Shown here in pieces: positions 26,901 to 51,774 of a stretch of DNA of 64,000 nt (position 1 is the stretch's first letter; each line of letters opens with the position of its first letter). The notes beneath the pieces were generated by a model. It saw nothing but the letters and a program-made list of their open reading frames with translations, was not told the origin of the DNA and searched no databases. Source of the stretch: Ostreococcus lucimarinus (taxonomy: Eukaryota); assembly GCA_000092065.1 (NCBI GenBank), contig CP000590.1, one strand, 5' to 3'. A program made the position numbers and the translations under genes.

Positions 26901-29900
26901 GAACTGGAGAACATGGCCGTCGGGGAGATTGCCGATATCCTTCCAAAGCTCAGTGGCGAAGGTGCATCGCAAGCGTTGCAGTCTCTTGGACCCGATAAAG
27001 CGGCCGAAGCGTTGGCGGGCAACACGCCCGAGTCAGCGGTGCGAATGATGGCGCATGTGTTCCCTGGAAATGTTGCGGAAATTCTTAGTTGCATGCGTCC
27101 TGACGCAGCCGCAGCGACAATCTCTGCGATGCCCGGCGAGCGAGCCGCTGAGGTTCTCAGCACAATGCAATCAAACGACGCGACGCAGCTGATGAAGAAT
27201 ATGTCGAGTGGGGAGATATCTGAAAAGGCTGAAATGTTCGCCGACGTCATTTGTGGCATGAAGGAAGACGATATGCTTGTGTGCGTTCGCGAGCTCATGA
27301 ATTCGCGAACCGCGGAGAAAGGTTTAAAGTCAGTGCTAGATAAAATGCCCGCGCGCGTCGTAGCTGAACTCACTGGTAAGCTGGATAAGGGTGAGAACAC
27401 CAGGCTTCTTTCCGGGCTTTCGCATGAGCGCACAGCCGCCATTGTCTCTAAACTGCCAGTTGAGCTGCAAGCCGGTGTCATTGGCCTGCTCGGCGGAGAT
27501 TCCATGTTCCAGATGACGAAGACCTTGTATGCTGCGTATAAAGTGGACAAGAATTCGTCCGCACAAGAGCGCAGTCGAATGAAGGCGGATGCCCAGGACA
27601 CGGGTCACCGGCTGGCCCCAGCTCTCGCTAGCATGGACACGGAGGAGCTCCGCGACAATTTCAAGCAAGCAACGCCCGAGCATATCGGTGGCTGCCTCTT
27701 TGCACTCATCGACGCAAAGCGCCGTCAGGTTGGCTCTAAAGCTATCGCTCGTCCCGTGGCACAGATGATGGAAGACGGCTCGATCGAATGGGGGGATGGT
27801 TCCATTTCTCACGTGAACGAAGACAGATCGGCAATCAATCATTCCGACGGAACTTCGGCATCCCTTCGTGTAGATGGTACTATCATCGATAGCGATGGAC
27901 AAGTGCTCAAACTTAGACCTGATGGGATCATCACGGCCGATGGTACTGTCCTAGGGGCCGACGGAGAAATCACCACCGCTCCGTCCGGTCCGTTGCACAT
28001 GTTCAGGGCACTGACGACGGAGCAGCAAACAGCGGCGATTCTTGAGCTCATCGAATTCAGTCAAACGGGTAACGCCGGCGAGATCTTGGTCGATCTCACC
28101 GCGACGGAGCTTCGCGAGACAATCCGCCCCATGGGTGCTAGCGACCAGGCGAAAGTCTTCATAGAAATCGGGCGAATGTCGCCCTCGCAAGCAGCTCGCG
28201 CTGCTTCAGTTCTCAGCCACACCGAAGCTGCATCAGTGGTGAGCATCATGGTGAATCCCGGTTCAAGCGGGCGATGCGACGAGCCATTCATGGGCCCGTT
28301 CCTCGAGGCGCTGGCGCCGCAGATTTTGCGTAACATCGAACCACCAACAGCTGTTGGCGGCGCGCTGGCAACGCATCTTTCCCCGACGGCAGCTGCTCAC
28401 GTTTTGCACAAGCTCGAGCCGATGGATGTGTCGCGTATCATCGAAGGAATGAGTCCAGCAGAAGTGCGCCAAGTCATCGAATCGAGTTCGAATATTCAGG
28501 CCGAAGCCGGTAAGGCTGTGAGCGATACTCCGCTCATCGCCGCGCTCGTGCCTTACGTGTCCGCCATGGATGACTCGCAAGCGGCGACGCTCTTGGAAGG
28601 TCTTCCTGCGGACATGGCTGTTGGCGTCATGATGTGCACGCCTGAAGAACGGGCTAAAGAGATTATGTCGCACACGCGAAGACGAGACTTGAAGGAGCGC
28701 ATAGCGAACAAATCCTTGATTCACCTCGACGCGTGTACTATCGTCAACCTTCGTGGGGCAGTAGCAGGGGAATCCTCTTCCTTCATTTTAGAAGCGAGAG
28801 AGCGCGGTGGAAACAGGATTACTTTTGGAGGCGGACGGTTGACAGTCGCCACGAAGCTGTTCTCCGCGCCTGGTCCTGGCGTTGAGCAAGGGACTGTCCA
28901 TGACCGCGGTAATGGTGAATACGTCGTACAGTTCACGAGCACCTTGGCCGGTAAGATCGCCGTCGTTGTCGAGGCTTCCGGACAATCTCGTGCCTGGGAC
29001 GTAAACATCGAGGCATCCGACGTCGTTATTCCAAAGTGTACGATCGAAAAGCAAGGATTGGAGAGTTGGACGGCCGGTAGTCCTGGTAGAATACTGCTTA
29101 CTTTGCGCGATCGCTTCGGGAATTTCGCTCATTCGTCGAAAAGTATCCTCGAGTTCGAAGCTCGCGCATCAGGACCTGGAGGCGTCATCGTCGAGCGCAA
29201 CATGTTGGATGACGGGAAAATTGAATTTCTCCTGAACACGACTGTCACTGGCATTTACAAAGTCGCCGTATCGTGCTTGGATACGAAAGAAGATTTGAGC
29301 GGCTGTCCCTTTGAAGCACGTATGGGGACCGACGCTCTCTCCCAAGCGGGCTGTACCGCCTCATTGCAATCTCTCACGAGTTCGACAAAGGGCCCGGGGG
29401 CGAAAGCCGCCGCCTATGGCGCCTGCGCCGCCATGGCGGGTGAAGAAGTCACCTGCGTTGTGGAGGCTCGCGATCGGTACGGCAATACGACTACTTTTGC
29501 AGGCGAACACGTGGCCGTCATTGCGTTCGGACCGGCGCACTTGCCCGCGGATAGACCGTTTGAAGTGGCCGACGTTCGCAGTGGCCGGATGGCGCTTCGA
29601 GCCATCTTCCCACGATCGGGGAGCTACACGATCGCTGTAACTGTTGACGGCATCCCGATCGCTACGTCTCCGCTCATCTTGCACGTTTTTCCGGGTGCGT
29701 GCGAAACGAGTCGTGCGGTCTTACGTGGTGACGCGCTCAATGGCATCGTCGCGAGTAAGATTACAAGTCTTCTTGTGCAAACAGAGGACAAGTACGGGAA
29801 CCATTGCCACGTGGGTGGCGACAGGGTGAATCTCTCCATGTCAGGACCGAACGGCATCAAAGTAAATTCTTTGGACGTCAAAGACAACGAAGACGGAACG

Positions 29901-32900
29901 TATTCTTTCTCATTCATCATTCCACAATCTGGTCGATGGACGATTCAAGCCGTCGTGAACGGTCGCATTGCAAAAGAGAGCACCACTGAAGTTGTCGTCA
30001 CATACGGCCCATTACACGCCGCCGCGTGCGTGTTGAAAGGAGGTCCTGGAATGAAACGTACGGAAGTTTGCGGTGCGCAGCGCGATATTTACTTGCAAGC
30101 TCTCGAATATGACGCAAACGGGCGCGGGATGAGCGGGCAAGAAGCTATCACAATGCACTTGATTACGCCAAGTGGTGCGACGCACACACTCGCCCCCGTT
30201 TTTGCCGAACGAGGCTCTCGCTACAAGGCCACGGTACGATGGTGGGAGGTTGGAAGACACGAGGTTGTCGCCGCAGTCGGGGGACAACCAGTTGTAGGTT
30301 CTCCATTCGTAGTGAACGTTGAAGCGCAGGAAGTGAGTCTGCCGATGTGTCGACTCTCGGGACCTGGCCTTCAGGGTGCTGTCGCGGGAGAGCGAGCCAC
30401 GATCCTCATCGAGTCAAGAGACGAACGCGGTAACCGACTCTTCAATGGCGGTGCACAAATGGGCATTGCCGTGCGATCGGGCGGTGAAACTCTTCGTGGC
30501 AAGGTGCAAGATTGCGGGGACGGTACGTATGAGGCGAGTTACATTGTCGAGCGTGCCGGACCGTTCGAGTTGTCACTGTTCCTCGGCACGGAGGCGGCTA
30601 CGTACAGGGCGACATGTAAGCCAGGACGCGTAGATTACGCCAAGTGCCGCGTTGATGGGGTGAATAATGGCGTATGGGTTGCTGGCGAGCAACTCACTCT
30701 CACAGTCACGCGCATGGATCGTTTTGGTAACAGAATCACCCGTCGCGAAGGGCTGGCGCCTTTCTTCGGCAAGGCGATTGGACCTGGAGATATCGTAAGC
30801 CAGTCGTTAGAACTCGGTAACGGAACGGCGGAAATCAAGTTGTACGGCACAGTTGCTGGAAACTATCAAATCGGTGTCTACGTTGCCGACACTCCCATTG
30901 TGCCTTACGCGAATGAGGAAGCCGAAGCTCTTATGGAGAACCAACAGCTCCTCCTCGAAGACTCAAAATCCGCTAAGTCCAAAGCAGATAGCAAAAGGAT
31001 TGAAGCGCAAGAGTCTGGTCTTCGAACAGATTCTCTCGCGGGTACCGTGCGTTCGGCGTCAAAGAGTGATATCAACGCTGGCAAGCCATTGGCCGCGGTT
31101 CCAGGAACCTTCATCGCCTCTGAAGACATTGAAGCGATGAAGGAAGTAACGCTGCCAAAGGTGACGACAATGAATGGCGTCGAAATGGTTCCGTTACCGA
31201 ATGGTTTGTTCGAGATGAACTTGATACCGACGATTGCGATGCCGAATTGCTGTGAGTTAGAAGTCATTGGTGGCACGCGCGCCGATGATTCATGGATCAC
31301 CCCAGCGGGTGACGAAGTGATTGTCAGAGTCATAGCCCGAGACAGATACAAGAATGAAACGCACTGGGAGGAGGGTCAAACGATCACCGTCGAGGCACTC
31401 GGTCCAGAGTTTCTGAGTTTCTCCTCGCACGGAACGACGAGCTTACAGAACGAGTTCGTCGCGAAGATGATTCGCGCGGGCACGTTTGAGCTTCGAGTGC
31501 TTTGTGACGCCCTTCCAGTCTGCTGGAGGGCAATGCAAGTCATCGCTGGCTTCACTTTCGCGCCGCGATCGATTTTGAGTATGGATGGGTTGAAGGACGT
31601 CAAAACTGGTAACATCGTTCGATTGACACTTCGAACAGTCGATAGGTATGCCAACCTCCGTCTTAGTGGTGGAGATACGGTGCAGCTAGCGCTCCAAGGT
31701 CCGAACGGCGCATTCGCTCGCCAAGTGAGCGTGACGGATCATCAAGATGGTACTTACGCGCTTGAATTCCAAGTCACTGCCGCAGGCAGGTGGATTATGA
31801 GTACGCGCATCAATAGTGTTCTTCACGTCGAGGGCGGAATTTCTTTTGTCGTTGCGTTCGGTACACTGACGGCAGAGGAGGCGGTGGTTTCTTTCGATCC
31901 TCCTTTGCCTAAAAACGGATCTGTTGAATGCGGTCGCACAAGCGATCTGATGCTGCATGGCGCCGGTTGGGAGACGAACAATCGCGTCATGACCGGTTTG
32001 GAGGCTGTGAGCGTTCGCTTGACGCATCCCTCTGGTTCTCAAGAAGCTATTCCGGTCACGTTGTCAAGGGATAACAAGTGTTATACCGCCAAGATCCGCT
32101 GGCTCCATCCTGGTCACCACTCTGTGAACATCATGTTGGACGGTGTTGTGGTTCCAGGCACGCCAGTTCGCGCCAACGCAGAGGGTAAAAAACTCGCTCT
32201 TATTTCATCAGCTCTTGTCGGCGATGGTGCCACAACTGCCACCGCCGGAGAAGATGCCGAGTTTACGCTTCTCGCTCGCGATTACGGAGGAAACCAAATT
32301 AACAAGGGCGGCGCTGACTTGGCGATTTCTTGTCGAGCCAGTGGCAGAGAACCAATTGCTGGTGAAATCCATGATAACGGCGACGGCTCGTACCGCTGCA
32401 TCTACTCGAGTACGATTGCGGGCGATATCGAAGTTGTCTTAACGTTAAATGAAGGCACGACGCAGACGAAGCGTTTGATCAACGTCAAATGCGAAGCGGC
32501 TGAGTGCGAAATCAGCGAATGTCGTGTTGACGCTGGTAAAATGATGTTACTTTGGAATGCGGGAGACGCTGGTCTAATTCGCGTCCAACGCCGGGACAAG
32601 TATGGTAACCCGACGACTAAAGATACCGCAAATGGTCTTAACCGTTTCGCCGCCGAAGTTGTCGGGCCAGGATGGGCTGACTGTGAAGCCTTGGAGCTTG
32701 GCGATGGTTCGTGCGAACTTCGACTTGTCGCTCAGGCTGCTGGGTCCTACGACATCTCTATCGTCGCCTTGGCAATCGATGAAGAAACAATGACCCCACT
32801 CGATGTTCCATCCGTCGAACTCACGTCTTTCAGCGCTATGGTGAGCAGTCAAGAGACTTTCCCGTCTTCTTGCGTCGCCCGAATGGCACTTGTCAACGGC

Positions 32901-35900
32901 GGTAAAGAGGAAACGCTCGCCGAAGTGGACGCCGATATTACGCTGCCGTCCACCATCATGGCAGGGGATGATATTGCGATGCACGTCTTATCACGCGACT
33001 TGCACGGGAATCACACTAACTGGCTTGGCGGCGAACGTATCGCCGTTCACGCACGCGGACCCATCGAAGTTCCGTTCGTTCCGATGGATGCGGTCGGCTC
33101 TTTCACGGCGGTCATCACAACGGCCGGAGCCTACTCGGTCGCCGCCCTCGTCGGCGACTGTGCGTGCAACGGATGGCCAAGAATCTTGCAAGTCGTCGCT
33201 GGTCCGTGTAACCCGGACAAGTGCACGGTAAGTGGGGATGCGCTCGGTAATTGTGCGACAGCGACTCCTATTTCGCTGTTGATGCAAGCTACGGACCAGT
33301 ACGGTAATCCGCGATCGCTTGGCGGTGATTTCATTGAAGCAGTGCTGATCAACGAAGACGAAGGTACCATTGATACACAGATAATCGACAATACCGACGG
33401 TACTTACACAATTAATTTCGAGCTGGACATGCCGATTGAGCACGAGCTGTGGATTTCTGCCAATGGCCTGCGCGAGAAACAAAGTCGCTACAGCTTGATG
33501 CCCAGCCTTGGCGCGCTGCAAGCGTCGGATTGCGTCATCAACGGTCTCGGCGGCGAGCGGTTGTGTCTCGCCGATCGCTCGACACTTTTCGTGCAACCAG
33601 CGAATCCGAGTCGCGTAATGAGTGGCAGGGAAGCCGTGGTGGTGTCTGTTCGCATGCCGAGCGAAATGTCCTTCAACTTGCCCCTGAAGTTTGAAACCGA
33701 TTCGCGAAGATTTTCGTGCCCTCTTCTTTGGGTTGAAGTCGGCGATCATCACATCACTGTCAATCTTGCTGGTGAAGTCGTTCCGGGTTGTCCATTCATG
33801 GTTCGTGTTCGAGATCCAGATGAAGAATTTGAGGAAATCGAAGGCGAGGAGTCGCAGACGGCGATGACCATGGTTCCCGCGGATAACTCTTTCGGATTTG
33901 TCTACACCAACGACAAGACGGCCGTCGCCGCTGCGCAAGCCGCGAGTGGCATCGGCACGACAGACGTGGACCCGGACGCAGAAGACGAAGACGATGAAGA
34001 TGCCTTCACATTTGGAACCGCACTCAACCCGCCACCTCCGCAACAAGTGGATTCGACCATCGCCATTATCCGCAAGCTCGAGCTCGAGGATGCAGGTGAT
34101 GCGCTCTCTGATATGCGCCCGGAGGTTGCCGCGGCGGTTTTGCAGCGCTTGAATCCACAAAAGGCTGCGTGTGCTGCGGCGATGATGTCTCAGACTGAAC
34201 TTAGTGCAGCGGTGGTAATGATGACGGAGGAAAGCGTATTGAGCGTGCTCAACGACGCGCCACCGGCCGCACGTGCGTCTATCATCGAATCTTTACCACC
34301 CGCTGCTGCGGCACAAGTGATGAATGGTATGGATGCCCGCGCCGCTTCCTTATGCGTCAATAAGCTCATTGATCCCGACGTTGCCGCGGCAATCATCGCT
34401 AAGATGAAACCCACAAAGGCAGCCGAGATGATGCAGTTTATCCCAGCTGATGCACAGAAGGCAATTTTGATCGAACTCGACCCGGTATCCATGTGCGCAT
34501 TGGTCACTGGTGCGTATGAGCCGACGGCGGCGGATGCCATCAGGCGAGGCCTGCAAGTGTCCCCGGACACGGTCAGTATCATCTTTACCACCGCTCCGGC
34601 GGAAGAGTGCGCTAAGATGGTCCGAAACATGCAACTTGACGCTCAAGGTTGTGAAATTGCAGCCGGTGCTATGCAGCGCGCCGCGCGAACGCATCCTCGT
34701 GCCGTTGAAAATATTCTCGCCATGACGAAGATGACCGCCGTCGACGGCGGCGCCGCCATCAAGGCAGCCGTGTTGAGACAACCGGGTGGTGATGTGATCG
34801 TCAAGAACGCCGAAACGAGTATAGCAAAGGGCGAGATTGAAATCCCCGCGCCCGTCGTGAAGACAAGGCAAGCCAAATTTAAGTGGGGTGGCACCGGTCT
34901 TAAGCCGAGTAAGACTGCATCCGAGCGCGCGGCGCGTTCGCTCGCCGGTATGGCTCCAAAGGTGTCTGCTCAAGCGCTCGCCGACATGCGTCCCGGTGCA
35001 GCGGGCGCGGTGCTCGCATCGATGGACTCTGAACGTATCTCCAGTATCATCTCCGTTATGGATCAGAATGTCATGGCGAGCGCGGTCGGAAGTATGGAGG
35101 CTGAAGAGGCATTACGCGTCATCAGCAGCTCATCGAATGCGGCGCGCGTGACGATTGTTGAAGCGCTCCCGGCTGGCGCGGCAGGATCCATCTTGAGTAT
35201 GTTACCGGCAGACGAAGCCGCGGACTTGCTTCGAGCCATGGACGCCAGCGCCGCCATTGAAGCAGTAAGCTCGATGCCCGCCAAGGCGGCTGCACTTGCC
35301 TTGCAAGAGCTCCCTGATGATCAAATGTCGACGTATTTGCTCACGCTTCCACCGAGCACGGCGGCACCTATCCTCTCGCACATGTGCGAGAGAGAAGAAG
35401 GCCGAGTGAGTGCATCCAAGGCGTTACAGCTGTTGAGCACGCTCAACGCAGATAAGACTACATTACACATCAGTGGAATGTTGCAACGAGATCCGAAGAG
35501 CACAGCGAAAATCATGACCGAACTCACCCAAGACGCTCGCGCAGCTGTGTTGGGTGCCTTGAACGCAAAGGATGCTGGCAAGGCGCTTCAATTCTTGGGG
35601 CCTCAAAATGCCGCATCTTCGCTCGTGGCTGCGGTAGCTGCGGGTACGAGTCCAGCGATTGCCGCAGTTGCACTCGAATCGTTGGCACGCCTCGGTGTTT
35701 GGCCACCAAGCATTGACGTACCGCGTTCTGGCGCCAAAGTGCGAGGTCCGCTTGCTGACGTCCTGTTGGTCATGTTCGAGCTTGAGCCTGAAGCAGCAGC
35801 GCAAGTACTCACCGCGCTCGATCCCGATGTCAGCGCATCGGCCGTCGGAGCAATGACCCCTGCAACTGCTGGTGCACTCGCGAGTGCCATCCCAGATCCA

Positions 35901-38900
35901 AAGGCTGCTGCGCTCTTGTTGGAGTCAATGCCGCACGCCAAACGGGCGGCGATGATCATCAAGATGCGTCCGCAGCCCGCCGCGGATGCGGCATCGAACA
36001 TGGAAACAGAGAACATCCTCGCTGTGATGAAAACGCTGTATGAAACGTTGGATCCGGCGACAATGTCGATTGCGAACGACATCATCTCGAAGATGGAGCC
36101 TTTCAAAGCTGGTTCCGTCGTTGCGGGTCTGGATGAAGCACACGCTGTCCGCATAATGTCAGCGTTGCCTCCTTTGGTTGCTGCCGCCTTGATTTCCAGT
36201 GGTGGTCTTCCGAGTGACAAGGCTGGTACATTCCTCGATCGCGTGAAGGTAGATCAAGCGGAGAATGTCCTTGCGGCACTCCCTCCGACTCTCGCGGAGG
36301 AAGCCGTGCAGAAGGTGTCAAGCACCGAGCTCAAGTCGAAGACGGCGTCTCGCACGGTGGTGCACCTGACCTCATCCCACATCTCAGGTCCTGGATGCGA
36401 AGAATGCGTCGCCGGTCTGGAAACCAAGTTCATCTTCGAAAGCACCAATCCAGGTGGTGTCCGAATCCACAAGGGTGGCGCGACATTGCAGTGCACAATC
36501 CATCATTTGACCTTCAAGTCGCAAGATGGGACGAACAGCGTGGATTTCATTCGAGGCGAAGGCAAACACGTGCAGGTGCAAGACATGATGAACGGTGCGT
36601 ACGAGTTCCCTTACAAACTCGATAAAGCCGGTGAATATGATGCCATGATTACGTCTGCTGGGCAGACTCGCGTCGTGCGAATCAGGTGCAAACCAACGAT
36701 ACTTGATCCGACGCAGTGCTCGGTGGTGCCGGTTGAGGAAGGAACCACATGGCGGGCGGGTGAAGTCCTCGTAGTCAAGGTGCTTTGTCGAGATCGATTC
36801 GGAAACGATGTTGCGCCACCGAAACAGGGTGATGCTGGTGTTGATTTCGTCTTGCTGGCGGATGGAGAAGGGCCGAGCGTCGTCGAGGCAGAGGTCGTCA
36901 ACGACCCAGCGGGTGTCGGCGCCTTCGCGAAATTCCGCGCGACGGAGTGCGGCAAGTACTCGCTTCGCATTTTTACGGCAGACGTCGCTCGTCAATGGTG
37001 GGGTGGTGTACAACGCGACTGCATTCAAGGTGCACCGATCGACATCGTTTTGACGGCCACCGCCGCAGATGCCTCGCGCTCAAGCGTGCAGCTCAGCGGC
37101 ATTCGTGAACGAGGTGGTGGCATGCTTCTCGGTTTGGCTGGTCGACAAATGGCCATCATCATTTTCGCCAGAGACAAGTTCAACAACGAAGCAGTCTTTG
37201 ATAATCAAAGACTGCGTGTTGACGCTGTCGGTGTCGCTACTTCTGTATTTAGCCTTACCTCGAAAGAGCCCGGAGAAGCAATGTTTACGAGTGCACTCCA
37301 GCGAGCAGGTACTTACTCGCTTCGCGTGACTGTGGACGGTAAGCCCGTGCACGGTTTCCCCCGTAACTTGCAGGTTGTTGCCGCTCAAACGGATCCGCGT
37401 TTCTGCTCTATTCGTGGAGATGCGCTCAACACTGTCGTTGCAGGCGAAGTCACGAAGGTTCTCGTGAATGCTGCGGATCGGTACCAAAACGTCTGCCTCG
37501 AAGGCGGTGATAGACTCACGGCGCGCCTTCTCGGTCCGGCGGGTTCTATCGATGCTGATACTTCTGATTTCGGCGATGGTACGTACCGATTGTCGTTCGT
37601 CGTCCCACGGGCTGGTGAGTGGAGAATCTTCTTAGCGGTTAATGGCGTGGAGAATCCGAAACCCGCGACTTCATTCGTCGCTTCCCAAGGCGGCTTGACG
37701 TCAAAGCAGCTCATGCTCATTCCAGCCGACAAGCGTGACGAGTACATGGTGGGTTCTGAATCTGAATTCTTCATTCAGTCCATCGATTACGAGGTCGGAG
37801 GTCTCGAAGTGAACGGCCATGAGGCTATCTGTCTGCGATTAATCGCACCCTCTGGCTTGTCCACGATTGTTCCCTTGAGGTTGACCAAAGACAAGGCGCG
37901 TTACCGCGCCAATATAATGTGGCCTGAAGTGGGCTCGCATTCGCTCATCGCGGCTTTGAACGGCGAAACTGTCGTTGGATGTCCATTCTCTGTGCAAACC
38001 GCCGCAGCACAGGTGTACGTCCCGGGATGTAAGATGACTGGCGCGGGCTCGACGAAGGCTGTCGCGGGCGAACGAGCGTCGTTCATCGTTGAGGCACGAG
38101 ACAACAGAGGCAACCGCATGATGGGAGGAGGCGCTACTCTGAGCGCCGTCGTACGATCTGCGTTGACCCCGGGGAAATCAGTCAAGGCCACCATACTTGA
38201 TCAAGGAGATGGTACGTACGTGTGCAGCTACACGATTAACAAAGCTGGTCCGTTCACCATCGTTGTGTCCTCACCCAACTCGCAAGCAACGCTCAGCGCC
38301 ACGTGCGTTGCCGGACCAGCGGACCCAGCATACTGCCGAATCGACGCGAGCGACGTCAAACAGATTGAAGCTGGTACGCGCGGCATCGTCAAGGTGTTAC
38401 GCGCCGATCGCTTCGATAACTTAATTCCCGCTGGTGCGGAGTTGATGCCATTCCGCGTTGAAGTCACTGGCGTCGGCCCGGCGGATGTCGAAACCGTCGA
38501 AGCAGGAGACGGTTCGGCAGAAGTTCGATTCGAGGCTCGTGCAGTCGGTCGATACACTCTTTACGTGTGGAGCGGCTTCAAACGCGAACCGGTGTTGGGT
38601 TCTCCGTGCGAGATTCAAGTCCTACCCAGTCAGCCCGCGGCTTCATCCTGCAAGGCGCAGTTACAAGGCGCCGAGTTCAAAGCTCAAGGCGTCTACAGCG
38701 CGCAAGCGGGTACCACTGTCACGGTGCGCATGCAACCGCGCGACAGATTCGGGAACACCACGGCTTGGAAGTCCTGGCAAACACTCAGCGTTACCGCGAG
38801 TGGTACCGAAGACATAACGTTTACAGAAATTGATGATCAAGAAGCAGTCTCGTCCCGCGGTGTGTTTTCTGCGACGTTTTCGAAAGCCGGCGCGTACGTC

Positions 38901-43779: not shown

Positions 43780-46700
43780 ATGCGCGCGATGCGGACGCGC
43801 GATCGGGACGCAGACGCGCGAGAGGCGATGGAGACGGCGGCGAAGACGGTGTCGAAGCTCGCGGCGGACGCCGAGCAAGCCGACTTGGTGGAACTGCTTC
43901 GAGAGGCGCCTCGGGAGGCGTATTCGTTTCAAAACGCGGGATGGCCGAGCGATGTGGTGGGTATGAAGAAGGAGGAACTGCCGGGGGTGGTGCTGGAGCG
44001 GTACAACACGCGGCAGTCGGTGTGCTTTTGCGGGGTGCTGCCGGAGATTTCGCGCGCGTGGGCGAGCGTGGACAACGCGTTGTTTTTGTGGAGGTTGGAC
44101 GTCGCGGACGACGTGCCGGTGGAGTACAGCGGCGAAGAGCAAGCGATCGTGGCGGTGGGGTTGGTGAAACCGAAGAGTGGGGTGTTTTTAGAGGCGATCT
44201 CGTACGTGCTCGTCATCGCGACGACGGTGGAGCTCGTCATGGTGGGGGTGTGCTTGGAGGACGACGGACGCGAGCTCACGCTGCATCCGCTGCAGTACTC
44301 GTGCCCGACGGACGCGACCATCATGAACGACATCACGTCTACGCCGGAGGGTAGGATCTTCTTAGCCGGTGCGGACGAAGCGCTTTATGAACTCGTGTAC
44401 GCGCAGAGCGACACGTGGCACAGCAAGCGATGCAAAAAGGTGCGACACAGTCAAAACTTGTCCTCGCTGTTGCCTTCGGTGCTGCGATTGAAGGGCTCGG
44501 ACGCTTTGAAACAAGTCGTCGTGGACGCCAAGCGCGGGATTTTGTACACGCGCAGCGAACAAGGCGTGGTGGTTGTGTACGACGTCGGCGCCGCGGCGAA
44601 GGACGCGCCGAGAAAAGTCGCCGAGGTTAAAAACGTCGCGCAACTCGCCGCGCAGGCTCGCGGTCAAGGGTCTCTGTTTGCATCGGCGACGTCATCGGTG
44701 AAGAAAGGGGCGAAGTTAGTGCACGTCGCATTGGTGCATCCGGAGGAGTCGTCCGTCGTGACGTTGGTGGCGATTTGCGCGGATGGAAGACGCATTTACC
44801 TCACCGCTCTTCCGCCGTCGCGCGGGTACTCGTACGGCGTCGCCTCGGGTACGGGTAGCTCTCGACAAGGGCCTTCGCGACTGTCCGTGGTCGAACAACG
44901 CGACCCGCCGCCGCAAGGAGGAAATCAGCGCGGTATGACGACGGCGCAGGCGCTCTTGAACACCACGTCGAGGGCCTTGGAAATTGAAGCCGGGTTTTAC
45001 AGCAGCGGCGTTTTGTTACTGTCGGACGCGACGCCGAACGACTCTGACGCGCGATTGATACTTTCAAACCGCGACCTGGCGCTACCCCCACACTTGCAGT
45101 TGCCGCCGCCGACGCCCCCACCGAGCTCGGGAAGCGGCACTCGCGGTTTGCGCGAAGTCGTCACCTTGGAACAACTTGAAGGGCGCTGCGCGTCGAGTCT
45201 CGGATCGCTCGGTGAGATTCCTATGCCAAAGAGCGTACAGGACGCGATCGATCCGCCATACCCCACGGGGACGCTTCCAGAAGCACGTGTAAAATCGACG
45301 GGACTACTCTCTGAGCTCGTCACGCAATACATGTGCCCGAGAAGAACGTTTGTGTTGATGACCAACGCCGGGTTGGTTCGATTCGAGAAGGCGCGCCCGA
45401 TTGACACGTTGAGAAGTGTTCTTGAAAAGAACATTCCGGAACAAATCGAGGAGTTCTTTAAGAGTTACGGACCGATTGAAGCTGCGGCAATGTGCGTCGC
45501 GTTATCTGTTTCGGGATCCGAATCCAACGCCGTGATCCTCGCCGCGAAGCGGGCCTTTGACGACCCGCGTCTCACCGGCGAGCCGAGCATCGTGGAGGAT
45601 AGCTACGCGCAAAATCAAGAGAATAATGGTGGATCTTTCAACATGGGGCGTGCGATCGTGCAACCGGTGCTGACTTTTTCGTCGGCGCAGCGTGGACTGT
45701 ACTTGTTCACGGCTCGCATAATGTCTAGCACGTGGGAACGAGCGATCATTGTGCCCGTTCGCGCGCCCGTTCAAACGAATTTGAACGGCAACTCGCGACC
45801 GCTATCGCCGGCGATGAAGATCGCGAACAAAGCGCTCGGCGCGGTGCAAGCGGCAGCTCGGTACATGAGTGAAGAACCGGCGCTCAGATGCTCCTTGGAT
45901 CCGACGTTGCTCAAGAATTTGCACGATCGCTTGATGCCGTTGGTGACTTTCTTGAAGCAGCGTAGACCGCGCATTAGCAGCGGCGCCACGATGTCGCAGA
46001 CGAAGCGGCGTCGAGTGCGTTCATCCGGCAGCGAACTCACGGCACTCCAGGAAGAAGAGCGCAGTCTCTCGGCCCTCTCCGCCTTGGTGAGCCGCACGGC
46101 GCAGGCTTTGTCTCTCATTAGAATCATCATCACTGATGAACGTTTCTCACGAGTGGCCGACATGCTTCCCTCGGCGATTCGCAAGGAGCTGTCACAGGTA
46201 CGTTTCCGCGCTCCTACGCCTCGTCTTTTCTTTTTTGCCTGCGCGATGATGATTTCCCATATATCAATCTGTCAATCCCCTGATTCACAGTGATGACAAC
46301 TCATATGGTGCCCTTCCACTGAGCGTCCACTTTTACTTTTCCGCGCTGTGTTCTTCTGAGACTTTCGACTGACTTTTTGTTTTACACTGCGACAGCTCAC
46401 CTTGAAGAAGTTGGTTTCGACGACGCACGGGGCGCGTTTGGCGGGTGCGCTCATCGAAGCGATGATGTCTCACATAATGTCTCACGCTCGTCACAGCGCC
46501 GAGGAATTAGCTGCGGAGCTCCAAAAGGGATGCCCAGACTTTTTCGGCGCAGATTCGAGGACATTTTACCACGCCAGAGACTTGTTGCAGTTGGCGCGCG
46601 ACGCGCGCGCGAGAAAGGAAAACGTCTTGCGCGACCAATACGTGAACGATGCGATCGCTTTATTCATGAAGGTGCCGACTTCTGGAGACTTATCGGCCGT

Positions 46701-48482
46701 TTGTGCTGAACTTGTCGATCTTCGCGCGTTTCATGGCGTCACCGCTGTGCCCCTCGCGGCGGCGGCGGCGCTCGAGGCGCGCGCAGAGGAAGCTCGTTTT
46801 ACGATGCATTCGCAACCGAATGTGGACATGGTGGTAAGTTTATCTTGACCTCAAATCTCGAAAGAACTTCGTTGCGATGAAGACGAATCTGATACGTGAA
46901 CGTTCGGCTTACCGCCGGGCGTGCCGTGATGATTAAAAACTACAGAACATCTAAGCCTGAGCGACGGCGAATCATTCTCGGCTCGAGTCACGACGGGATC
47001 GCGAAAATCTCTTACTGACGACAAATTTTTACCGCATTATAGGATCTCCAATCGTGCTTTGAAGTCACGTGTACCACGATTCGGGCGCTTGCGACTGGAA
47101 GGGCTGATGCGGACGCTGAACCAGGTTCGCTGAGTCGCGTCGCGGCGGAAGAACTTCCCGAGGACATTCGTGAACGAGGTCTCGTGAAGATTCTAGAGCA
47201 GCTTCAACGAGTGTCTGGAGCTGACTCACAAGATTTCATGCACCGCGTATTTGCGGAGCTGATTGCAGTGAGACGCGACGCCATGCTTTTATCGCTACCC
47301 GCGGCTATGTTGGAACCGTACTTGGTGAACAAGAGCGCGTTGACGTCTGCGCAACAAGGCGGCGCGCTCACGCCGGATGAGGCGAGACATCTCGATCTCT
47401 TGGCGCAGTTGTACGCCGCCCGAAGTCTGTTTGGATTGGCGGCACAGGTCGATTGCTCGTTAGCGGAGCGTCGATGCGCGAACGACGAAACGTTCAGTTT
47501 GGACCAGCGCATGGCTTTGTTTGAGCGCGCGCTCATGCACGCCAGAAAGTCGGTCGACGGGGGATTGACCAATGGTTTGGACACGTCGTTTTGCGAAAAC
47601 GTCGACAGCAAAATCAAATTGCTCGACATGCAGCGGCGAGTGCTGGGCGTGTGCATAGAGCGCTCCCGTCAAGCACGCGCCACCGGATCGTCGAACGCTC
47701 CGGAGGAGGCGTTTGTGTACGAATTGGAGCGCGAGTTGAAGCAACTGAGCGACTTGTACAACGACTTCGCCAAGCCGTGTGAGTTGTGGGACATCTGCCT
47801 CGAAATGGTGCACTTCTCGCAATACCACGATCCGGATGGCGAGATTGTGTGTGACTTATGGGATAAGCTCCTCTTACAAGCCGCGTCTCGCGCGCCGAGC
47901 GCCGCGACGTGCCTGCGGGAAGCCTGCCTCGTGGTTCGCGCGTTGGGCGTGAAGTTGTTCCCATCGGACGTCGCGTTTCCGGTCATTCACGTGGCTTTGC
48001 GTTTGGAGCTCATGGCGGCAGGACTGTGGGGTGTTCCCGATGTCGCAGTCGAAGCGCACGTCGACGATGAGTATGACACGAGCGAAGTCGCGGACGCGCT
48101 CGTCGTCGCGTGCAAAGGACTCGCAGAGCCCGTGCAACGAGCGTACGACCGCTTGCTCGCGACCCCGGCCCAACGCATGCACGATAAGCGTCTGTCGAAA
48201 GTGGATGCGTTACAAACCCCGCGTTTGCGCCTCCGCTTGCTCAGATCGGTGTACTTTGTGCTCCAGCTTTGGGACCAGTCGCTCGTGCCCAAGGCGACGG
48301 CGTACGGCGAACCGAGAGCGTACGCCACCGGAGGCCACGTGCGCGCGGCGATCGGCGACTTGTGCGTGAGCTACGCCTCGGAAAGCCGACGAATGCAGTG
48401 TCCGAATGAGGTTATTCGCGCGAACGCCGAGGAACTCGCCGCCGCTTTCGACACGTTCGGCCGCCGCTTGCTTTCTTCGTAG
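43780..48482 (+). CDS. NUP155: Nucleoporin Nup155/Nup170 family, three exons: 43780..46197, 46396..46833 and 47043..48482. Introns are 46198..46395 (GTACGT donor) and 46834..47042 (GTAAGT donor, CTGAC branch point, tatag acceptor), both phase 0.
   Basis: The N-terminal region (…YNTRQSVCFCGVLPEISRAWASVDNALFLWRLDVADD...AIVAVGLVKPKSGVF) matches the Nup155 N-terminus (…[28 protein letters not shown]...ILAVGLVKPK). The three ORF pieces are in compatible phase. The first ATG at 43780 is used; METAAK at about 43828 is an alternative. Confidence 0.8.
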
Positions 48483-48595
48483 ACGAGTAGACAAAGCCCT
48501 CGCGACGGGGCGTTGAGAAAAATAAAACCGTGTATGATTTAAATCGGATGTTGTGTGTTTGATATTCGACATCATAAGCTAATCAACGTCGGTGT

Positions 48596-49568
48596 TTACT
48601 CTTCATCTTTCTTTTCCTCGACCTTGGTCGCGGTCAAAGCGTCCGCGAGCGCGTCCGCTTCTTCGGCGACTTGCGCCTTTTCCTCGGCGGCCTCGGCTTC
48701 GCCCTCTTCCGCCGGAAGCGCCGCCATCTTCTTTTGGGCGTCATTGAACGCCGCCGTGAAGAGTTCGCACTTTTCCGCGCTTCCGAACTTGATGCACATG
48801 TTGTAAAGCTCCGGGCGTTCGTCGCCGTCCGAGCAATCCACCGTGGTGAACACGCACGCCTTTTCGCTCGCCGCGTGCTCCGCCACCTTGGATTCTTGTT
48901 GCACGTAAAAGTTGGCGCAAATCTTCAGCGTTTTATCCCGGCGCATGAGCACGCGAATCTTTTTAGACGTCTTGTGCTCGAGAAGTTTAATCGGACCGAG
49001 TCCTCGTTCCTTCCATTCGCCGTCGGTGAACCGGTACGATTTCACCTTGCTGCGTCGCGCGTCGTCGTTCTCGTCGTCAGTCCTCCATCCTCGCGTCGCG
49101 CGTCCCATCTCTCCATCCCACGCCTCGCGTCCGTTCGCTTCGTCTCGCACGTACGCTTCGAACAAAATATCTTCGTCCTCCTCCCCCGTGGTCGTCGCCT
49201 CCGCGCCCTCCACGATCTCCAGCTTCACCACGGGTTTAAACTCCGCCTTGCACTCCGCCTCGACGTCGTCGTCCCCCTCCTCGTCATCGTTCCCGGTCTT
49301 TTCCTCCGCCTTCGGCGCCTCCTTCGACGCGAACTTCGACGGATCGAAACCTCCGCCCGCGGCCGCGGCGCCGAACCCTCCCTGCGCGAACGCCGCGCCG
49401 AAGATCGGCGTCGTCGTCGGCGGCGCCGTCTGTCGACATGCATTCAGATCGCGCCTTCGTCAGTCCCTCGTCGCGCGTCGTCGCGCGCGCGCGTCACCGG
49501 GTCGTCGCGCGGTCGTCGCGCGTCGCGAGCGTCCGTTCGCGCACCTCGTTCGCGGCGTCCTCGCTCAT
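48596..49568 (-). CDS. RANBP1: Ran-binding protein 1 (RanBD), three exons: 49545..49568 (MSEDAANE), 49155..49429 and 48596..49049. Introns are 49430..49544 (GTGCGC donor, CTGAC branch, cag acceptor) and 49050..49154 (GTACGTG donor, CTGAC branch, cgcag acceptor; 105 nt, in frame).
   Basis: The spliced protein ...[79 protein letters not shown]... matches the RanBD (…EEDEEVLFKMRAKLFRF...QWKERGIGD.K.L.....K.R..MRRD..LK.CANH). The ORF track reads straight through the in-frame intron, inserting 35 spurious residues. Exon 1 is the least certain part. Confidence 0.75.
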
Positions 49569-50449
49569 CGCGCGCGATCGATCGCGTCGCGATGTGCGGC
49601 GACGCCCTCGCGCGCGGCACTCCATGTCGACCACCGGAGCGCGCGCGCGCGACGACGGCGGCGGGTCATCGACGCGCACGTGCGTGGGGGTGACGACGTT
49701 CGACGACGCGCGCGAGAGTCGACGCGCGACGCCGGTGCGCGACGCGCGACGCGAATCTTCCGAATCCGCGAATCTTCCGTCGACGCGAATCGACGGCGAA
49801 TCGACCGACGCGCGCGACTGACGAGCGCGCCGACGCCCGCAGACGTGCTACGGATTCACGCGCCGGCGAGACGCGGCGCTGCGCGAAGAGCGGCGGACGC
49901 TGCGCACGGGGGACGTCGTCGGACGGTATCGGTACGCGTGCCTGGGACGAAGCGCGCGCGCGGTGCCCTTCTACGCCGAGGGACGACGCGCGCCCACGCT
50001 GGAGGAGCGCAAGCGCGGGACGGAGTTCCCGGTGTGCCAAGGGCTGGAGGTGCTCGTCGCGGAGAGAGTGGACGAACGCGCGGCGCGGCGCGGCGACGGC
50101 GACGCGAGCGAAGACGACGCGACGGACGCGGCGATGCGAAAGCGCGTCGGCGCGCGGGAGATCAGGGAGACGCGCGAACGCGAGCTCGGCGCGAGCGCGG
50201 CGTTGGAGCGGTTCAACAGGAGCGCGGGGAAAATTTCAGCCAACATGCGGCGACACGCGAAGTTCATCGGCGACGGCGCGTACTCGCTCTTCTTCACCGG
50301 CGGTCGGCGGTCGTGAACCGTGGGTCGAGCGCGCGACGCGCGCATTCTTTGTAATCACGATGTACCATCGAATCGTAGCCACCGCGCGCGACGTTCGCGT
50401 CGCGGCGTCCGTCGACGTCGTCGACGCCGCACATCGCGACTCGCGCGAC

Positions 50450-51106
50450 ATGTTCCGCGCCCCTCCCGAAGGTTTGCGCGCGCGCGCGAACGCGCTCGAC
50501 GATCGACGCGCGCTGCGTTTACACGACGACGAGCGATGCGTCTTGTCCTGCGACGCCGCGATGACGATCGGCGACGACGACCCGGCGTCGAGCGCGATTC
50601 CGGGTGAATTATACATCACCGACGCGCGCGTCGCCTTCGTCCCGCGAGACCCGACGTCGACGTCGGCGTACGCGTGCGAGTATCGCTGTCTCGCGCTGCA
50701 CGCGATCTCGCGCGAGGACGATCGCTACGGAAGCGGCGGGTGCGTGTATTGTCAGATTGACGGCGGCGCCGACGCGCCGAGCGCGTCGACGACGACGAAC
50801 GCCGACGACGCGAACGACGACGAGCCCTACGACGAGGACGACCCGGTGACGGCGCACGTGCGCTTCGTCCCGAAAGACGCGACGACGCTGGAGGAGATCT
50901 ATCGCGCGATGAGCGAGGGGTCGTTATTGAACCCGGATCCCGACGCCGAGCGATTCGACGACGACGACGACGACGACGAATTCCTTGAAGACGACGACGA
51001 GGCGCACGCGCGCGAAGCCGCGCTCGAGCGATTAGATAAGCTCCTCGTCGTGGACGACGAGGTCGAGGCGTTGATGAAGCGCGACCCGGGTCGTTTCGAG
51101 GATTAA
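50450..51106 (+). CDS. CLNS1A: Methylosome subunit pICln (CLNS1A; chloride conductance regulatory protein ICln).
   Basis: MFRAPPEGL...GELYITDARVAFV...YACEYRCLALHAISRE and VTAHVRFVPKDATTLEEIYRAMSEGSLLNPDPD, then an acidic tail. These align with human pICln (GTLYIAESRLSWL...ISLHAVSRD; ITEFRFVPSDKSALEAMFTAMCECQALHPDPED). Confidence 0.8.
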   Translation: MFRAPPEGLRARANALDDRRALRLHDDERCVLSCDAAMTIGDDDPASSAIPGELYITDARVAFVPRDPTSTSAYACEYRCLALHAISREDDRYGSGGCVYCQIDGGADAPSASTTTNADDANDDEPYDEDDPVTAHVRFVPKDATTLEEIYRAMSEGSLLNPDPDAERFDDDDDDDEFLEDDDEAHAREAALERLDKLLVVDDEVEALMKRDPGRFED

Positions 51107-51189
51107 AGTCGGTCGACGTATGTAACGAGCCGACGTCGCTCGCTCGCGCCGTCGCCCCTCGCCCCGCGACTCGCGCTTCTCGCCTCACA

Positions 51190-51660
51190 ATGTCTCTCGC
51201 GACCGTCTCGCGCGCGCTCTCGCGCCCTCGCGTCGTCGTCGGACGCAAGGCATCGCGACGCACCGATTCCGAGCCCGCGGCTCGACGGACGACGCGCATG
51301 CACGCCTCGGACATCCAACGCTTGGGCACCGATGACCCTCGCATGAGTCAGGTGGTCGTGCACAACGGCATCGTCTACTGCAGCGGACAGGTTGGATTGA
51401 CCACGACCACGGTGCGAGAACAAACGATCGAAACGCTGGAAAAGTTTGACAAACTGCTCGCGATGGCGGGGACGGATAAGTCGCGAATATTGACCTCGAT
51501 GTGCTGGCTGCGGGACATCAAAGACGCGCCCGAGTTCAACGCCGTGTACAACGCGTGGATCGATCCGGATAATAAACCCACGCGGGCGTGCGTGCAGAGC
51601 GAGTTGGCGCGACCTGAATTGTTGGTTGAGGTGCAAATTACCGCGGCGTTGCCGCCGTGA
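51190..51660 (+). CDS. RIDA: RidA / YjgF / UK114-family reactive-intermediate (enamine/imine) deaminase with an N-terminal organellar presequence.
   Basis: VVHNGIVYCSGQVG...TLEKFDKLLAMAGTDKSRILTSMCWLRDIKDAPEFNAVYNAWIDPDNKPTRACVQSELARPELLVEVQITAAL follows the YjgF/chorismate-mutase-like pattern. Confidence 0.8.
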   Translation: MSLATVSRALSRPRVVVGRKASRRTDSEPAARRTTRMHASDIQRLGTDDPRMSQVVVHNGIVYCSGQVGLTTTTVREQTIETLEKFDKLLAMAGTDKSRILTSMCWLRDIKDAPEFNAVYNAWIDPDNKPTRACVQSELARPELLVEVQITAALPP

Positions 51661-51774
51661 GGCGTCGAGACGAACGAGTTGAGTCGCCGGAGGGCGAAGG
51701 AGCGCTCGACGCTCGCGTTGAAATCTTGAAATACATATTTATTCATTCACTCATCGACGACGATAGTACACGCG

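What the first reader, a model, noticed from the sequence alone, without database searches (positions are those of the whole stretch)
49050..49154. In-frame 105-nt intron hidden inside the RanBP1 ORF
The ORF track reads straight through a segment that has all the features of an intron (GTACGTG donor, CTGAC branch 23 nt before a cgcag acceptor). Removing it converts ILFE-AYVRDEANGREAWDGEMGRATRGWRTDDENDDARR-SKVKSYRF into [21 protein letters not shown], which matches the conserved RanBD core (VLFKMRAKLFRF...QWKERG). Because its length is a multiple of 3 and it is stop-free (easy in >65% GC DNA), it is invisible to ORF finders. Retention would yield a 35-residue insertion in the Ran-binding fold, so regulated intron retention is conceivable.
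Basis: seen in the sequence. Interest (0 to 1): 0.5.

Follow-up and report, generated by a model that had tools for sequence, protein, structure and literature searches.

The report
Ordinary in-frame intron in RanBP1
The 105-base segment is a normal spliceosomal intron in the Ran-binding-protein gene of an Ostreococcus-like marine picoalga. It is a multiple of three and stop-free only by chance, and nothing found here indicates that it is ever kept as coding sequence.

Summary
Window 49154..49050 (minus strand) is a 105-nt GT-AG segment with a GTACGTG donor, a GGACTGACGA branch site (branch A 27 nt from the 3' end) and a CGCAG acceptor. ORF 48596..49231 reads straight through it. Removing it restores an unbroken RanBD: Pfam Ran_BP1 goes from 3.6e-29 covering profile 15-122 to 2e-34 covering 3-122. 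None of 28 homologues has residues there.

Four ~1-kb contigs that are 99.8% identical to the window lack exactly these 105 nt. Demonstrably RNA-derived contigs of a sister clade lack the orthologous intron.

Other Ostreococcus-like lineages carry an intron at the same codon position, with lengths 97, 119, 142, 159, 163 and 165 nt (the last has a stop). Several clades, including O. tauri-like DNA, have none. The reading frame is therefore not conserved.

The intron is 70% identical where the exons are 94-96% identical, and only the splice signals are preserved. With 7% T, a 105-nt intron is open in frame 40-57% of the time, so "3n and open" is expected for about 1 intron in 6.

The intron call is right. 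"Regulated in-frame retention" is unsupported: retention would split beta-strand 1. Interest is low. The intron actually seen retained in RNA is intron 1.

The parts
49545..49568 (-). RanBP1 exon 1 (ATG at 49568-49566; encodes MSEDAANE)
   Evidence: Gene model built. The same exon 1/exon 2 join is seen in the fully spliced contig L008 / P0124 (MSEDAANE|APPTTTT...) of a sister lineage. It also matches the O. tauri RefSeq protein XP_022839813.1 (MSADDAKET|PAATTT...) when compared with O. tauri-like DNA L042.
49430..49544 (-). Intron 1, 115 nt, phase 0 (GTGCGCG ... GGGACTGACGA ... GACAG)
   Evidence: It must be removed to give the conserved FG-rich N-terminus an ATG, because otherwise a stop lies upstream in frame. 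It is spliced out in L008. It is retained in L001-L004, and its orthologue is retained in the RNA-derived contigs L013, L040 and L041.
49155..49429 (-). RanBP1 exon 2 (FG-rich N-terminus, acidic stretch, start of RanBD up to ...[11 protein letters not shown])
49050..49154 (-). Intron 2 (the finding): 105 nt, phase 2, in-frame and stop-free
   Evidence: Sequence. It is absent, with the junction GAAGC|CAAGG, from the 99.8%-identical contigs L001-L004. Orthologous introns occupy the same site in other lineages.
49148..49154 (-). 5' splice site GTACGTG
   Evidence: GTRCGT is conserved in the orthologous introns of L033 and L021 and in the other candidate introns of the window.
49076..49083 (-). 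Branch-site motif GGACTGAC (branch A at 49077, 27 nt from the 3' splice site)
   Evidence: GGAGGACTGACGA is invariant among WIN, L005, L033 and L021 while the surrounding intron diverges. [quoted passage not shown]
49050..49054 (-). 3' splice site CGCAG
   Evidence: ACGCAG is conserved.
48596..49049 (-). RanBP1 exon 3 (rest of the RanBD plus the acidic C-terminus; TAA stop at 48598-48596)
   Evidence: Three of the four transcript-type contigs end 38-58 nt past the stop, at 48538-48558.

Best explanation
Window 49154..49050 (minus strand) is a conventional U2-type GT-AG spliceosomal intron. It is the second of two introns in the RanBP1 (Ran-binding domain) gene of an Ostreococcus-like picoalga. 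The spliceosome recognises GTACGTG, the strong Mamiellophyceae-type branch site GGACTGACGA and CAG. It removes the 105 nt and joins GC|C into an Ala codon, so beta-strand 1 of the RanBD (…[14 protein letters not shown]…) is continuous. The length being 3n and the absence of an in-frame stop are by-products of a short, T-poor (7% T), purine- and GC-rich intron, not a selected feature. The intron is old: it sits at the same position in two Ostreococcus-like clades. It has been lost, or was never present, in others, and it evolves as non-coding sequence. Shown here: the signals, the restoration of homology, the absence of the segment from transcript-type contigs, and the lack of frame conservation. 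Inferred: that L001-L004 are RNA-derived, and that splicing is constitutive.
For: (1) Pfam Ran_BP1: the spliced form scores 2e-34 and covers profile positions 3-122, while the read-through form scores 3.6e-29 and covers only 15-122.

(2) Solved RanBDs align contiguously with residues 71-206 of the spliced form, and the scores rise. Nup358 goes from 262 to 352 bits and 1rrp_B from 88 to 99 bits. In the read-through form the match to Nup358 stops at query residue 100 and resumes at 137, while the chain advances only from 2789 to 2791.

(3) In a 29-sequence alignment, the 35-residue block occupies columns that are empty in all 28 homologues, which span green algae and a fungus. The O. tauri RefSeq protein aligns without a gap across [13 protein letters not shown].

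(4) Contigs L001-L004, from four SRA runs and 99.8% identical to the window, lack exactly 49154..49050. L008, from a sister lineage, lacks both introns.

(5) In a sister clade, contigs L040 and L041 carry a protein from the same 90%-identity cluster as MMETSP culture transcripts. They lack the orthologous intron and also both introns of the neighbouring nucleoporin gene. They are therefore RNA-derived.

(6) The intron-bearing genomic ORF P133 (id P0133) is listed in 583 blocks of the collection (322 contigs), including Tara metagenome assemblies; the intron-less ORF P0011 is on only 4 contigs, all about 1 kb.

(7) Orthologous introns at the same GAAGC|GT site are 97, 105, 119, 142, 159, 163 and 165 nt long, and the 165-nt one has an in-frame stop.

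(8) Window versus L033: the exons are 94-96% identical, while the intron is 70% identical with 10 gap columns. Only GTRCGT, GGAGGACTGACGA and ACGCAG are conserved.

(9) Chance of being open in frame: 0.40-0.57.

(10) Twelve other candidate introns in the window, chosen by eye from the motif scan, share the same signal architecture.
Against: No read-level RNA-seq data were available, so the spliced-to-retained ratio is unknown. The RNA origin of L001-L004 is inferred, not documented. They also retain intron 1, and L001 additionally retains part of a neighbouring gene's intron. That pattern could in principle mean genomic DNA from an allele lacking intron 2. In this one lineage the intron is both 3n and open, so a retained transcript would escape nonsense-mediated decay and could be translated.
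Confidence: 0.93

Rival explanations
1. Exitron-like regulated retention. The intron is alternatively retained in frame, giving a second RanBP1 isoform with a 35-residue loop that has a function or a regulatory role.
For: In this lineage the length is 3n with no in-frame stop, so a retained mRNA would not be an NMD target. AlphaFold still assembles the rest of the RanBD around the insertion, with pLDDT 86-91 after residue 61. Retention does occur in this gene, but for intron 1.
Against: The frame is not conserved in orthologous introns: 97, 119, 142 and 163 nt, and a stop in the 165-nt one. The intron diverges about five times faster than the exons and carries indels. The insertion falls in the middle of beta-strand 1, which is residues 20-34 at block-mean pLDDT 94-96 when spliced. 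In the read-through form that strand is split into 20-26 and 64-69, with residues 34-55 below pLDDT 50. All contigs recognisable as transcript-derived lack the intron. Being open in frame is expected by chance at 0.13-0.19 per intron.
Confidence: 0.04
2. A genuine lineage-specific coding insertion. The 105 nt are always translated and the splice-like signals are coincidental.
For: The open reading frame is continuous. The read-through protein still passes the Pfam threshold at 3.6e-29.
Against: Contigs at 99.8% identity lack precisely the GT..AG-bounded 105 nt. No homologue has the insertion. Close relatives carry frame-shifting versions of the same segment, 97 and 119 nt, which must be removed for the conserved downstream RanBD to be read. 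The only conserved islands are the splice signals.
Confidence: 0.01
3. A DNA-level presence/absence polymorphism, or a recently mobile 'introner'. L001-L004 would be genomic DNA of strains lacking the intron, and the intron would be a recently gained, repeated element like the Micromonas introner elements.
For: L001-L004 keep intron 1, and L001 keeps part of the neighbour's intron. The intron is absent from several Ostreococcus-like clades, including O. tauri-like DNA. It shares 17-18-nt strings with other places in the window, for example an intron at about 12261-12402.
Against: The same pattern, with intron 1 kept and intron 2 removed, occurs in contigs that are demonstrably RNA because the nucleoporin introns are also removed. 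The intron-less ORF is found only on four ~1-kb contigs from one SRA run series, against 583 collection blocks that hold the intron-bearing ORF. Three of the four contigs end 38-58 nt after the stop codon, and L003 starts exactly at a predicted exon boundary, 49734. Exact matches of 18 nt or more elsewhere in the window are reached by 8% of shuffles. There is no target-site duplication, because the boundaries are unambiguous. The orthologous intron in a second clade is unrelated in sequence, which points to an old intron.
Confidence: 0.02

Closest known systems
Canonical U2-type spliceosomal introns of Mamiellophyceae (Ostreococcus, Micromonas)
   Same: It has a GTRCGT-type donor (reported consensus AG|GTGCGT), an NCTGAC / GACTGACG branch point close to the 3' end, and a CAG acceptor. 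It is short and GC-rich. These features are described in PMC3879977, which cites Irimia and Roy 2008 for the Ostreococcus extended branch point. Twelve other candidate introns in this window have the same build.
   Different: Nothing essential differs. The donor context is GC|GTACGT rather than AG|GTGCGT. The branch A is 27 nt from the 3' splice site, whereas the paper gives 43-52 bp for Micromonas. The other candidate introns in the window sit at 21-38 nt.
Exitrons (in-frame, stop-free, alternatively spliced segments inside coding exons; Marquez et al. 2015, recalled from my own knowledge)
   Same: The length is a multiple of three, there is no in-frame stop, and it is flanked by coding sequence.
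   Different: Exitrons have coding-type conservation, and the retained form is a normal protein isoform. Here the orthologues do not keep the frame, the sequence evolves like non-coding DNA, and no transcript-type contig retains it.
Micromonas introner elements (D-IE, ABC-IE/IE-C, E2-IE; PMC4540971, PMC3879977)
   Same: It is a short GC-rich intron with a GACTGAC branch motif in a related genus, and its presence or absence differs between clades.
   Different: Introner elements are defined by many near-identical copies per genome. No significant copy was found in 64 kb, and the intron is orthologous and old rather than recently inserted.
RanBP1 / Yrb1 / RanBD of Nup358 (Pfam PF00638), the host gene
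   Same: The spliced product matches the full RanBD at 2e-34 and solved RanBD structures at 1e-25 to 1e-29. It is 83% identical to O. tauri XP_022839813.1 over 178 residues.
   Different: None relevant. One Cys-for-Arg difference (AEKCELF) from every close environmental copy examined (the window lineage and its nearest sister lineages).

Membership tests
U2-type GT-AG spliceosomal intron (Mamiellophyceae type) | 5' GT with a GTRCGT-like donor | tested here: met
   GTACGTG at 49154-49148. The donor is conserved as GTRCGT in L005, L033 and L021.
U2-type GT-AG spliceosomal intron (Mamiellophyceae type) | Branch-point motif (N)CTGAC / GACTGACG a few tens of nt upstream of the 3' splice site | tested here: met
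   GGACTGACGA at 49083-49074, with the branch A 27 nt from the 3' end. The motif is invariant across lineages. The motif definition is from PMC3879977.
U2-type GT-AG spliceosomal intron (Mamiellophyceae type) | 3' YAG acceptor | tested here: met
   CGCAG at 49054-49050.
U2-type GT-AG spliceosomal intron (Mamiellophyceae type) | Absent from mature RNA, with an exact exon-exon junction | tested here: met
   L001-L004 carry the junction GAAGC|CAAGG at 99.8% identity. L008 is fully spliced. The RNA-derived contigs L040 and L041 lack the orthologous intron. Caveat: the RNA origin of L001-L004 is inferred, and no read-level data were available.
U2-type GT-AG spliceosomal intron (Mamiellophyceae type) | Removal restores uninterrupted homology to the protein family | tested here: met
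U2-type GT-AG spliceosomal intron (Mamiellophyceae type) | Evolves as non-coding sequence (faster than the exons, indels not in threes) | tested here: met
   70% versus 94-96% identity, with lengths of 97, 105, 119, 142, 159, 163 and 165 nt.
Exitron / regulated in-frame retained intron | Length 3n and no in-frame stop | tested here: met
   105 nt and an open frame. This is expected by chance at 0.13-0.19 per intron.
Exitron / regulated in-frame retained intron | Reading frame and peptide conserved in orthologues | tested here: not met
   Four of the six other lengths are not 3n, and the 165-nt version has a stop. The intron sequences are unalignable between clades.
Exitron / regulated in-frame retained intron | Retained isoform present in mRNA, with a condition-dependent ratio | not testable with these tools
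   No RNA-seq reads were available. No contig recognisable as transcript-derived retains it.
Exitron / regulated in-frame retained intron | Insert compatible with the protein fold | tested here: inconclusive
   The insert splits beta-strand 1, and insert residues 34-55 have pLDDT below 50. The rest of the domain is still modelled.
Introner element (Micromonas-type repeated intron) | Many near-identical copies in the genome | tested here: not met
   Only 64 kb could be searched. The longest exact match elsewhere is 18 nt, a length reached by 8% of dinucleotide shuffles.
Introner element (Micromonas-type repeated intron) | Recent insertion: presence/absence among near-identical strains, target-site duplication | tested here: not met
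   It is present in all genomic contigs of this lineage (L005-L007, L010, L011). There is no duplicated base at the boundaries. An intron occupies the same site in a distant clade.
RanBP1 / RanBD (PF00638), host gene | Full-length match to the RanBD profile above the gathering score | tested here: met
   118.9 bits against a cut-off of 23.2, covering profile positions 3-122.

The most novel reading that the evidence does not exclude
In this one lineage, where the intron happens to be 3n and open, a fraction of transcripts might retain it. That would produce a RanBP1 variant with a 35-residue acidic/Arg-rich loop in beta-strand 1, with altered or dominant-negative Ran binding: an incipient exitron born by chance from an ordinary intron.
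Probability: 0.04. Interest if true: 0.35.

Novelty: already known. Interest (0 to 1): 0.1.

Why it matters
It matters mainly for annotation. In GC-rich, T-poor picoalgal genomes, roughly one short intron in six is invisible to ORF-based or prokaryote-style gene callers. The public protein collection contains the read-through artefact as P0133, listed in 583 blocks of the collection (322 contigs). The case shows how to tell such an intron from a real insertion, using orthologous intron lengths and transcript-type contigs. It says nothing new about splicing or Ran biology.

Tried and rejected
(1) Introner-element idea. At first I assumed Micromonas and looked for repeated copies. BLAST of both introns against the window gave only short low-complexity matches. 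The shared 17-18-mers, for example CGAAGCGAACGGACGCG also found in the intron at about 12261-12402, are within chance: 8% of shuffles reach 18 nt or more. The organism turned out to be Ostreococcus-like. The main text of the PNAS 2022 introner survey does not mention Ostreococcus.

(2) Intron-encoded RNA. There is no Rfam match in 48400-49900 better than E = 0.1, and none inside the intron. The fold z-score is -1.6, which is not notable.

(3) I looked for the SRR28369xxx runs in the literature to establish the library type. The only hit was an unrelated paper.

I used the 99%-identical spliced ORF P0011 instead.

That was enough for the comparison but is not exhaustive.

(6) The first regex for the N-terminal motif found nothing and was redone.

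Full report
**What is in the sequence**

The gene lies on the minus strand. Reading 49720..48480 in reverse complement, I built a three-exon model:
- exon 1: 49568-49545 (ATG..., encoding MSEDAANE)
- intron 1: 49544-49430 (115 nt; GTGCGCG ... GGGACTGACGA ... GACAG)
- exon 2: 49429-49155
- intron 2: 49154-49050 (the finding; 105 nt)
- exon 3: 49049-48596 (TAA stop)

Intron 2 reads GTACGTG...GGAGGACTGACGACGAG...CGCAG. It is phase 2: GC|C becomes an Ala codon. The mechanical ORF list shows the 211-aa ORF 48596..49231 reading straight through it. The only correction is to the branch-site spacing: the branch A is 27 nt from the 3' end, and 21 nt separate CTGAC from cgcag.

**Does removal restore the protein?**

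It does.
- Pfam Ran_BP1 scores 2e-34 and covers profile positions 3-122 for the spliced product. The read-through product scores 3.6e-29 and covers only 15-122.
- Against solved structures, the read-through form breaks. Its match to the fourth RanBD of Nup358 runs to query residue 100 and resumes at 137, while the chain advances only from 2789 to 2791.
- The spliced form aligns contiguously (residues 71-206) to Yrb1, RanBP1 and RanBP2 RanBDs, with higher scores. Nup358 goes from 262 to 352 bits and 1rrp_B from 88 to 99 bits.
- In a 29-sequence alignment, the 35-residue block sits in columns that are empty in all 28 homologues.
- The O. tauri RefSeq protein aligns without a gap across [13 protein letters not shown].

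**Whose genome is this?**

The best protein hits are unnamed environmental sequences. The 90%-identity cluster of hit P0009, which is 77% identical to the query, contains O. tauri XP_022839813.1. The window is therefore from an Ostreococcus-like Mamiellophyceae alga, not a named reference in this collection. Tara and other marine metagenome contigs are 99.8% identical to window 46096-51734 (L006, L007). The read-through ORF P0133 is on record in 583 blocks of the collection. The gene order Voldacs, small ORF, RanBP1, nucleoporin is conserved in all related contigs.

**Direct evidence for removal**

*Same lineage.* The ORF P0011 (176 aa, 99% identical, junction [12 protein letters not shown]) lies on four ~1-kb contigs from four runs of one SRA series (L001-L004). 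They match the window at 99.8% and lack exactly 49154..49050, with the junction GAAGC|CAAGG. The boundaries are unambiguous because no base is shared across them, so there is no target-site duplication.

*Sister lineage.* L008 (923 nt, protein P0124, 252 aa, MSEDAANE|APPTTTT...) lacks both introns when compared with the window and with genomic L034.

*Sister clade.* Contigs L040 and L041 carry a protein from the same 90%-identity cluster as MMETSP culture transcripts. They lack the orthologous intron. They also lack both introns of the convergent nucleoporin gene (window 46198-46395 and 46834-47042), so they are RNA-derived.

*Are L001-L004 RNA?* Their RNA origin is inferred, on four grounds:
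- They are the only carriers of the intron-less ORF, against hundreds of intron-bearing metagenome contigs.
- Three of the four end 38-58 nt past the stop codon.
- L003 starts exactly at 49734, the predicted exon 1/intron boundary of the divergent neighbouring gene.
- Their pattern, with intron 1 kept and intron 2 removed, is the same as in the demonstrably RNA-derived L040.

**Comparative test of 'coding when retained'**

I extracted the segment between GEEDEDILF and KSYRF in 40 loci.
- An intron sits at the same GAAGC|GT position in two clades. Its lengths are 105 nt (window lineage), 97 (L033-L035), 119 (L021, with a (GCGAG)n run), 142 (L022), 159 (L015, L039), 163 (L023) and 165 (L019, L020, with an in-frame TAG).
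- It is absent from genomic contigs of the other clades: L009, L014, L036-L038, L016-L018 and L012. It is also absent from the outgroup L024-L028 and from O. tauri-like L042, which does have intron 1.
- On a rough NJ tree of 520 exon nucleotides, the intron-bearing clades are separated by intron-less ones. The simplest history is therefore an old intron with one or two losses. This tree is not robust.
- Between the window and L033, the exons are 94-96% identical with no gaps, while the intron is 70% identical with 10 gap columns. The conserved islands are the donor, GGAGGACTGACGA and ACGCAG. Between clades the introns cannot be aligned.

This is the signature of a spliced, non-coding intron. 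It removes any argument that the reading frame is maintained.

**Is 'in-frame and stop-free' remarkable?**

It is not. The intron has 47 G, 28 A, 23 C and only 7 T. Shuffles that keep the splice-site ends are open in the reading frame in 40% (dinucleotide) to 57% (mononucleotide) of trials. With the 1/3 chance of a 3n length, that is about 0.13-0.19 per intron. From the motif scan I picked thirteen candidate introns, the two RanBP1 introns included, that show a clear donor/CTGAC/AG arrangement. Only the two RanBP1 introns and the two nucleoporin introns (46198-46395, 46834-47042) have transcript-contig support. Six of the thirteen have lengths that are multiples of three.

**What would retention do?**

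In the AlphaFold model of the spliced ORF (P0011 with 28 homologues), beta-strand 1 runs as one strand over residues 20-34, with block-mean pLDDT 94-96. The splice junction falls between residues 26 and 27. In the model of the read-through ORF, that strand is split into 20-26 and 64-69, and residues 34-55 have pLDDT below 50. The insertion would therefore cut a core strand of the PH-like fold. The model cannot say whether such a protein would still work.

**Other readings tested**

- *Introner-type repeat:* no support.
- *Intron-hosted RNA:* no Rfam match, and the fold is unremarkable.
- *Genuine coding insertion:* contradicted by the frame-shifting orthologues.
- *DNA-level presence/absence allele:* unlikely, for the reasons given above.

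**Comparison with what is known**

This is a standard Mamiellophyceae intron. The published description gives an AG|GTGCGT donor and an NCTGAC branch point, with GACTGACG as the extended Ostreococcus branch point (PMC3879977). The exitron concept (recalled from my own knowledge) shares only the 3n/no-stop property. Its defining features, conservation of the frame and a retained isoform, are respectively not met and not testable here.

**Verdict**

The regulated-retention idea is unsupported. This is ordinary biology plus an annotation pitfall.

The more curious by-product concerns intron 1 rather than intron 2. Intron 1 is found retained in transcript-type contigs of two clades (L001-L004, L013, L040, L041). 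In the window lineage its retention leaves the RanBD reading frame without an ATG, behind a 24-codon upstream ORF.

Noticed in passing
window 49430-49544 (-); L001-L004, L013, L040, L041: RanBP1 intron 1 (115 nt, not in frame) is retained in every transcript-type contig of the window lineage (L001-L004). Its orthologue is retained in the RNA-derived contigs L013, L040 and L041 of a sister clade. Intron 2 is removed in all of them, and in L040 the two nucleoporin introns are removed as well. With intron 1 retained, the window's main ORF has no ATG, because the reading MSEDAANEVRERTLATRDDRATTR* ends inside the intron. In the L040 strain, an ATG inside the intron gives an alternative N-terminus (MLAQAQQ...). 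This may be a slowly spliced or regulated first intron.
   Followed up: partly
window 49624-50316 (+), candidate intron 49735-49842: The divergent neighbouring gene appears to start at ATG 49624. That is only 55 nt from the RanBP1 ATG at 49568 on the other strand, so the 5' ends of the two genes are extremely close or overlap. It has a 108-nt candidate GT..ACTGAC..AG intron that is also 3n long but has a stop in frame. Contig L003 begins exactly at 49734, the predicted exon 1 end.
   Followed up: partly
window 48767-48769 (-): The window encodes Cys (TGC) in AEKCELF. Every close environmental copy examined has Arg (CGC; AEKRELF or AEKREAF), including the 99.8%-identical contigs and P0133. This is a strain-specific or assembly-specific single-base difference.
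   Followed up: no
L009, L012, L014, L016-L018, L036-L038, L042 versus window 49050-49154: Intron 2 is absent from the genomic contigs of several Ostreococcus-like clades, including O. tauri-like DNA. It is present in two other clades. This is intron loss, or less likely parallel gain, within the genus. Intron 1 is present in the lineages where it was checked (window lineage, L034, the L013/L015/L022/L023/L039 clade, and O. tauri-like L042).
   Followed up: partly
window about 24000-38000 and 44000-48000: A block of lower GC (0.545-0.58, against 0.62-0.75 elsewhere) occupies about 24-38 kb. The nucleoporin gene's introns (46198-46395 and 46834-47042) are T-rich (25-37% T), unlike the T-poor GC-rich introns elsewhere in the window. 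Low-GC 'outlier' regions with distinct introns are known in Mamiellophyceae genomes (own knowledge; BOC1 introns are mentioned in PMC3879977). I did not examine this.
   Followed up: no
window 12261-12402 (-) and 12496-12736 (-): Two candidate introns (142 and 241 nt) lie in a gene whose flanking exon reads ...AVWSKGIRN|VPK..., which looks like ribosomal protein L31e (from memory, not searched). The 142-nt intron shares the 17-mer CGAAGCGAACGGACGCG with RanBP1 intron 2 at the same distance from the donor, and intron 1 has GCGAACGGACGC. Shuffling says matches of this length are within chance.
   Followed up: partly
L021 (Ga0222719_10243471), intron orthologous to window 49050-49154: In this relative, whose sampled exon stretches are 86% and 93% identical to the window at the nucleotide level, the intron is 119 nt and contains a (GCGAG)n microsatellite of about 8 units. 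This shows how intron length drifts by slippage.
   Followed up: no
window 48912-50354 (+) and 48671-49693 (+): Long antisense ORFs (480 and 340 aa, Arg/Ser/Ala-rich) overlap the RanBP1 gene. They look like typical artefacts of high GC content. I did not search them against protein families.
   Followed up: no
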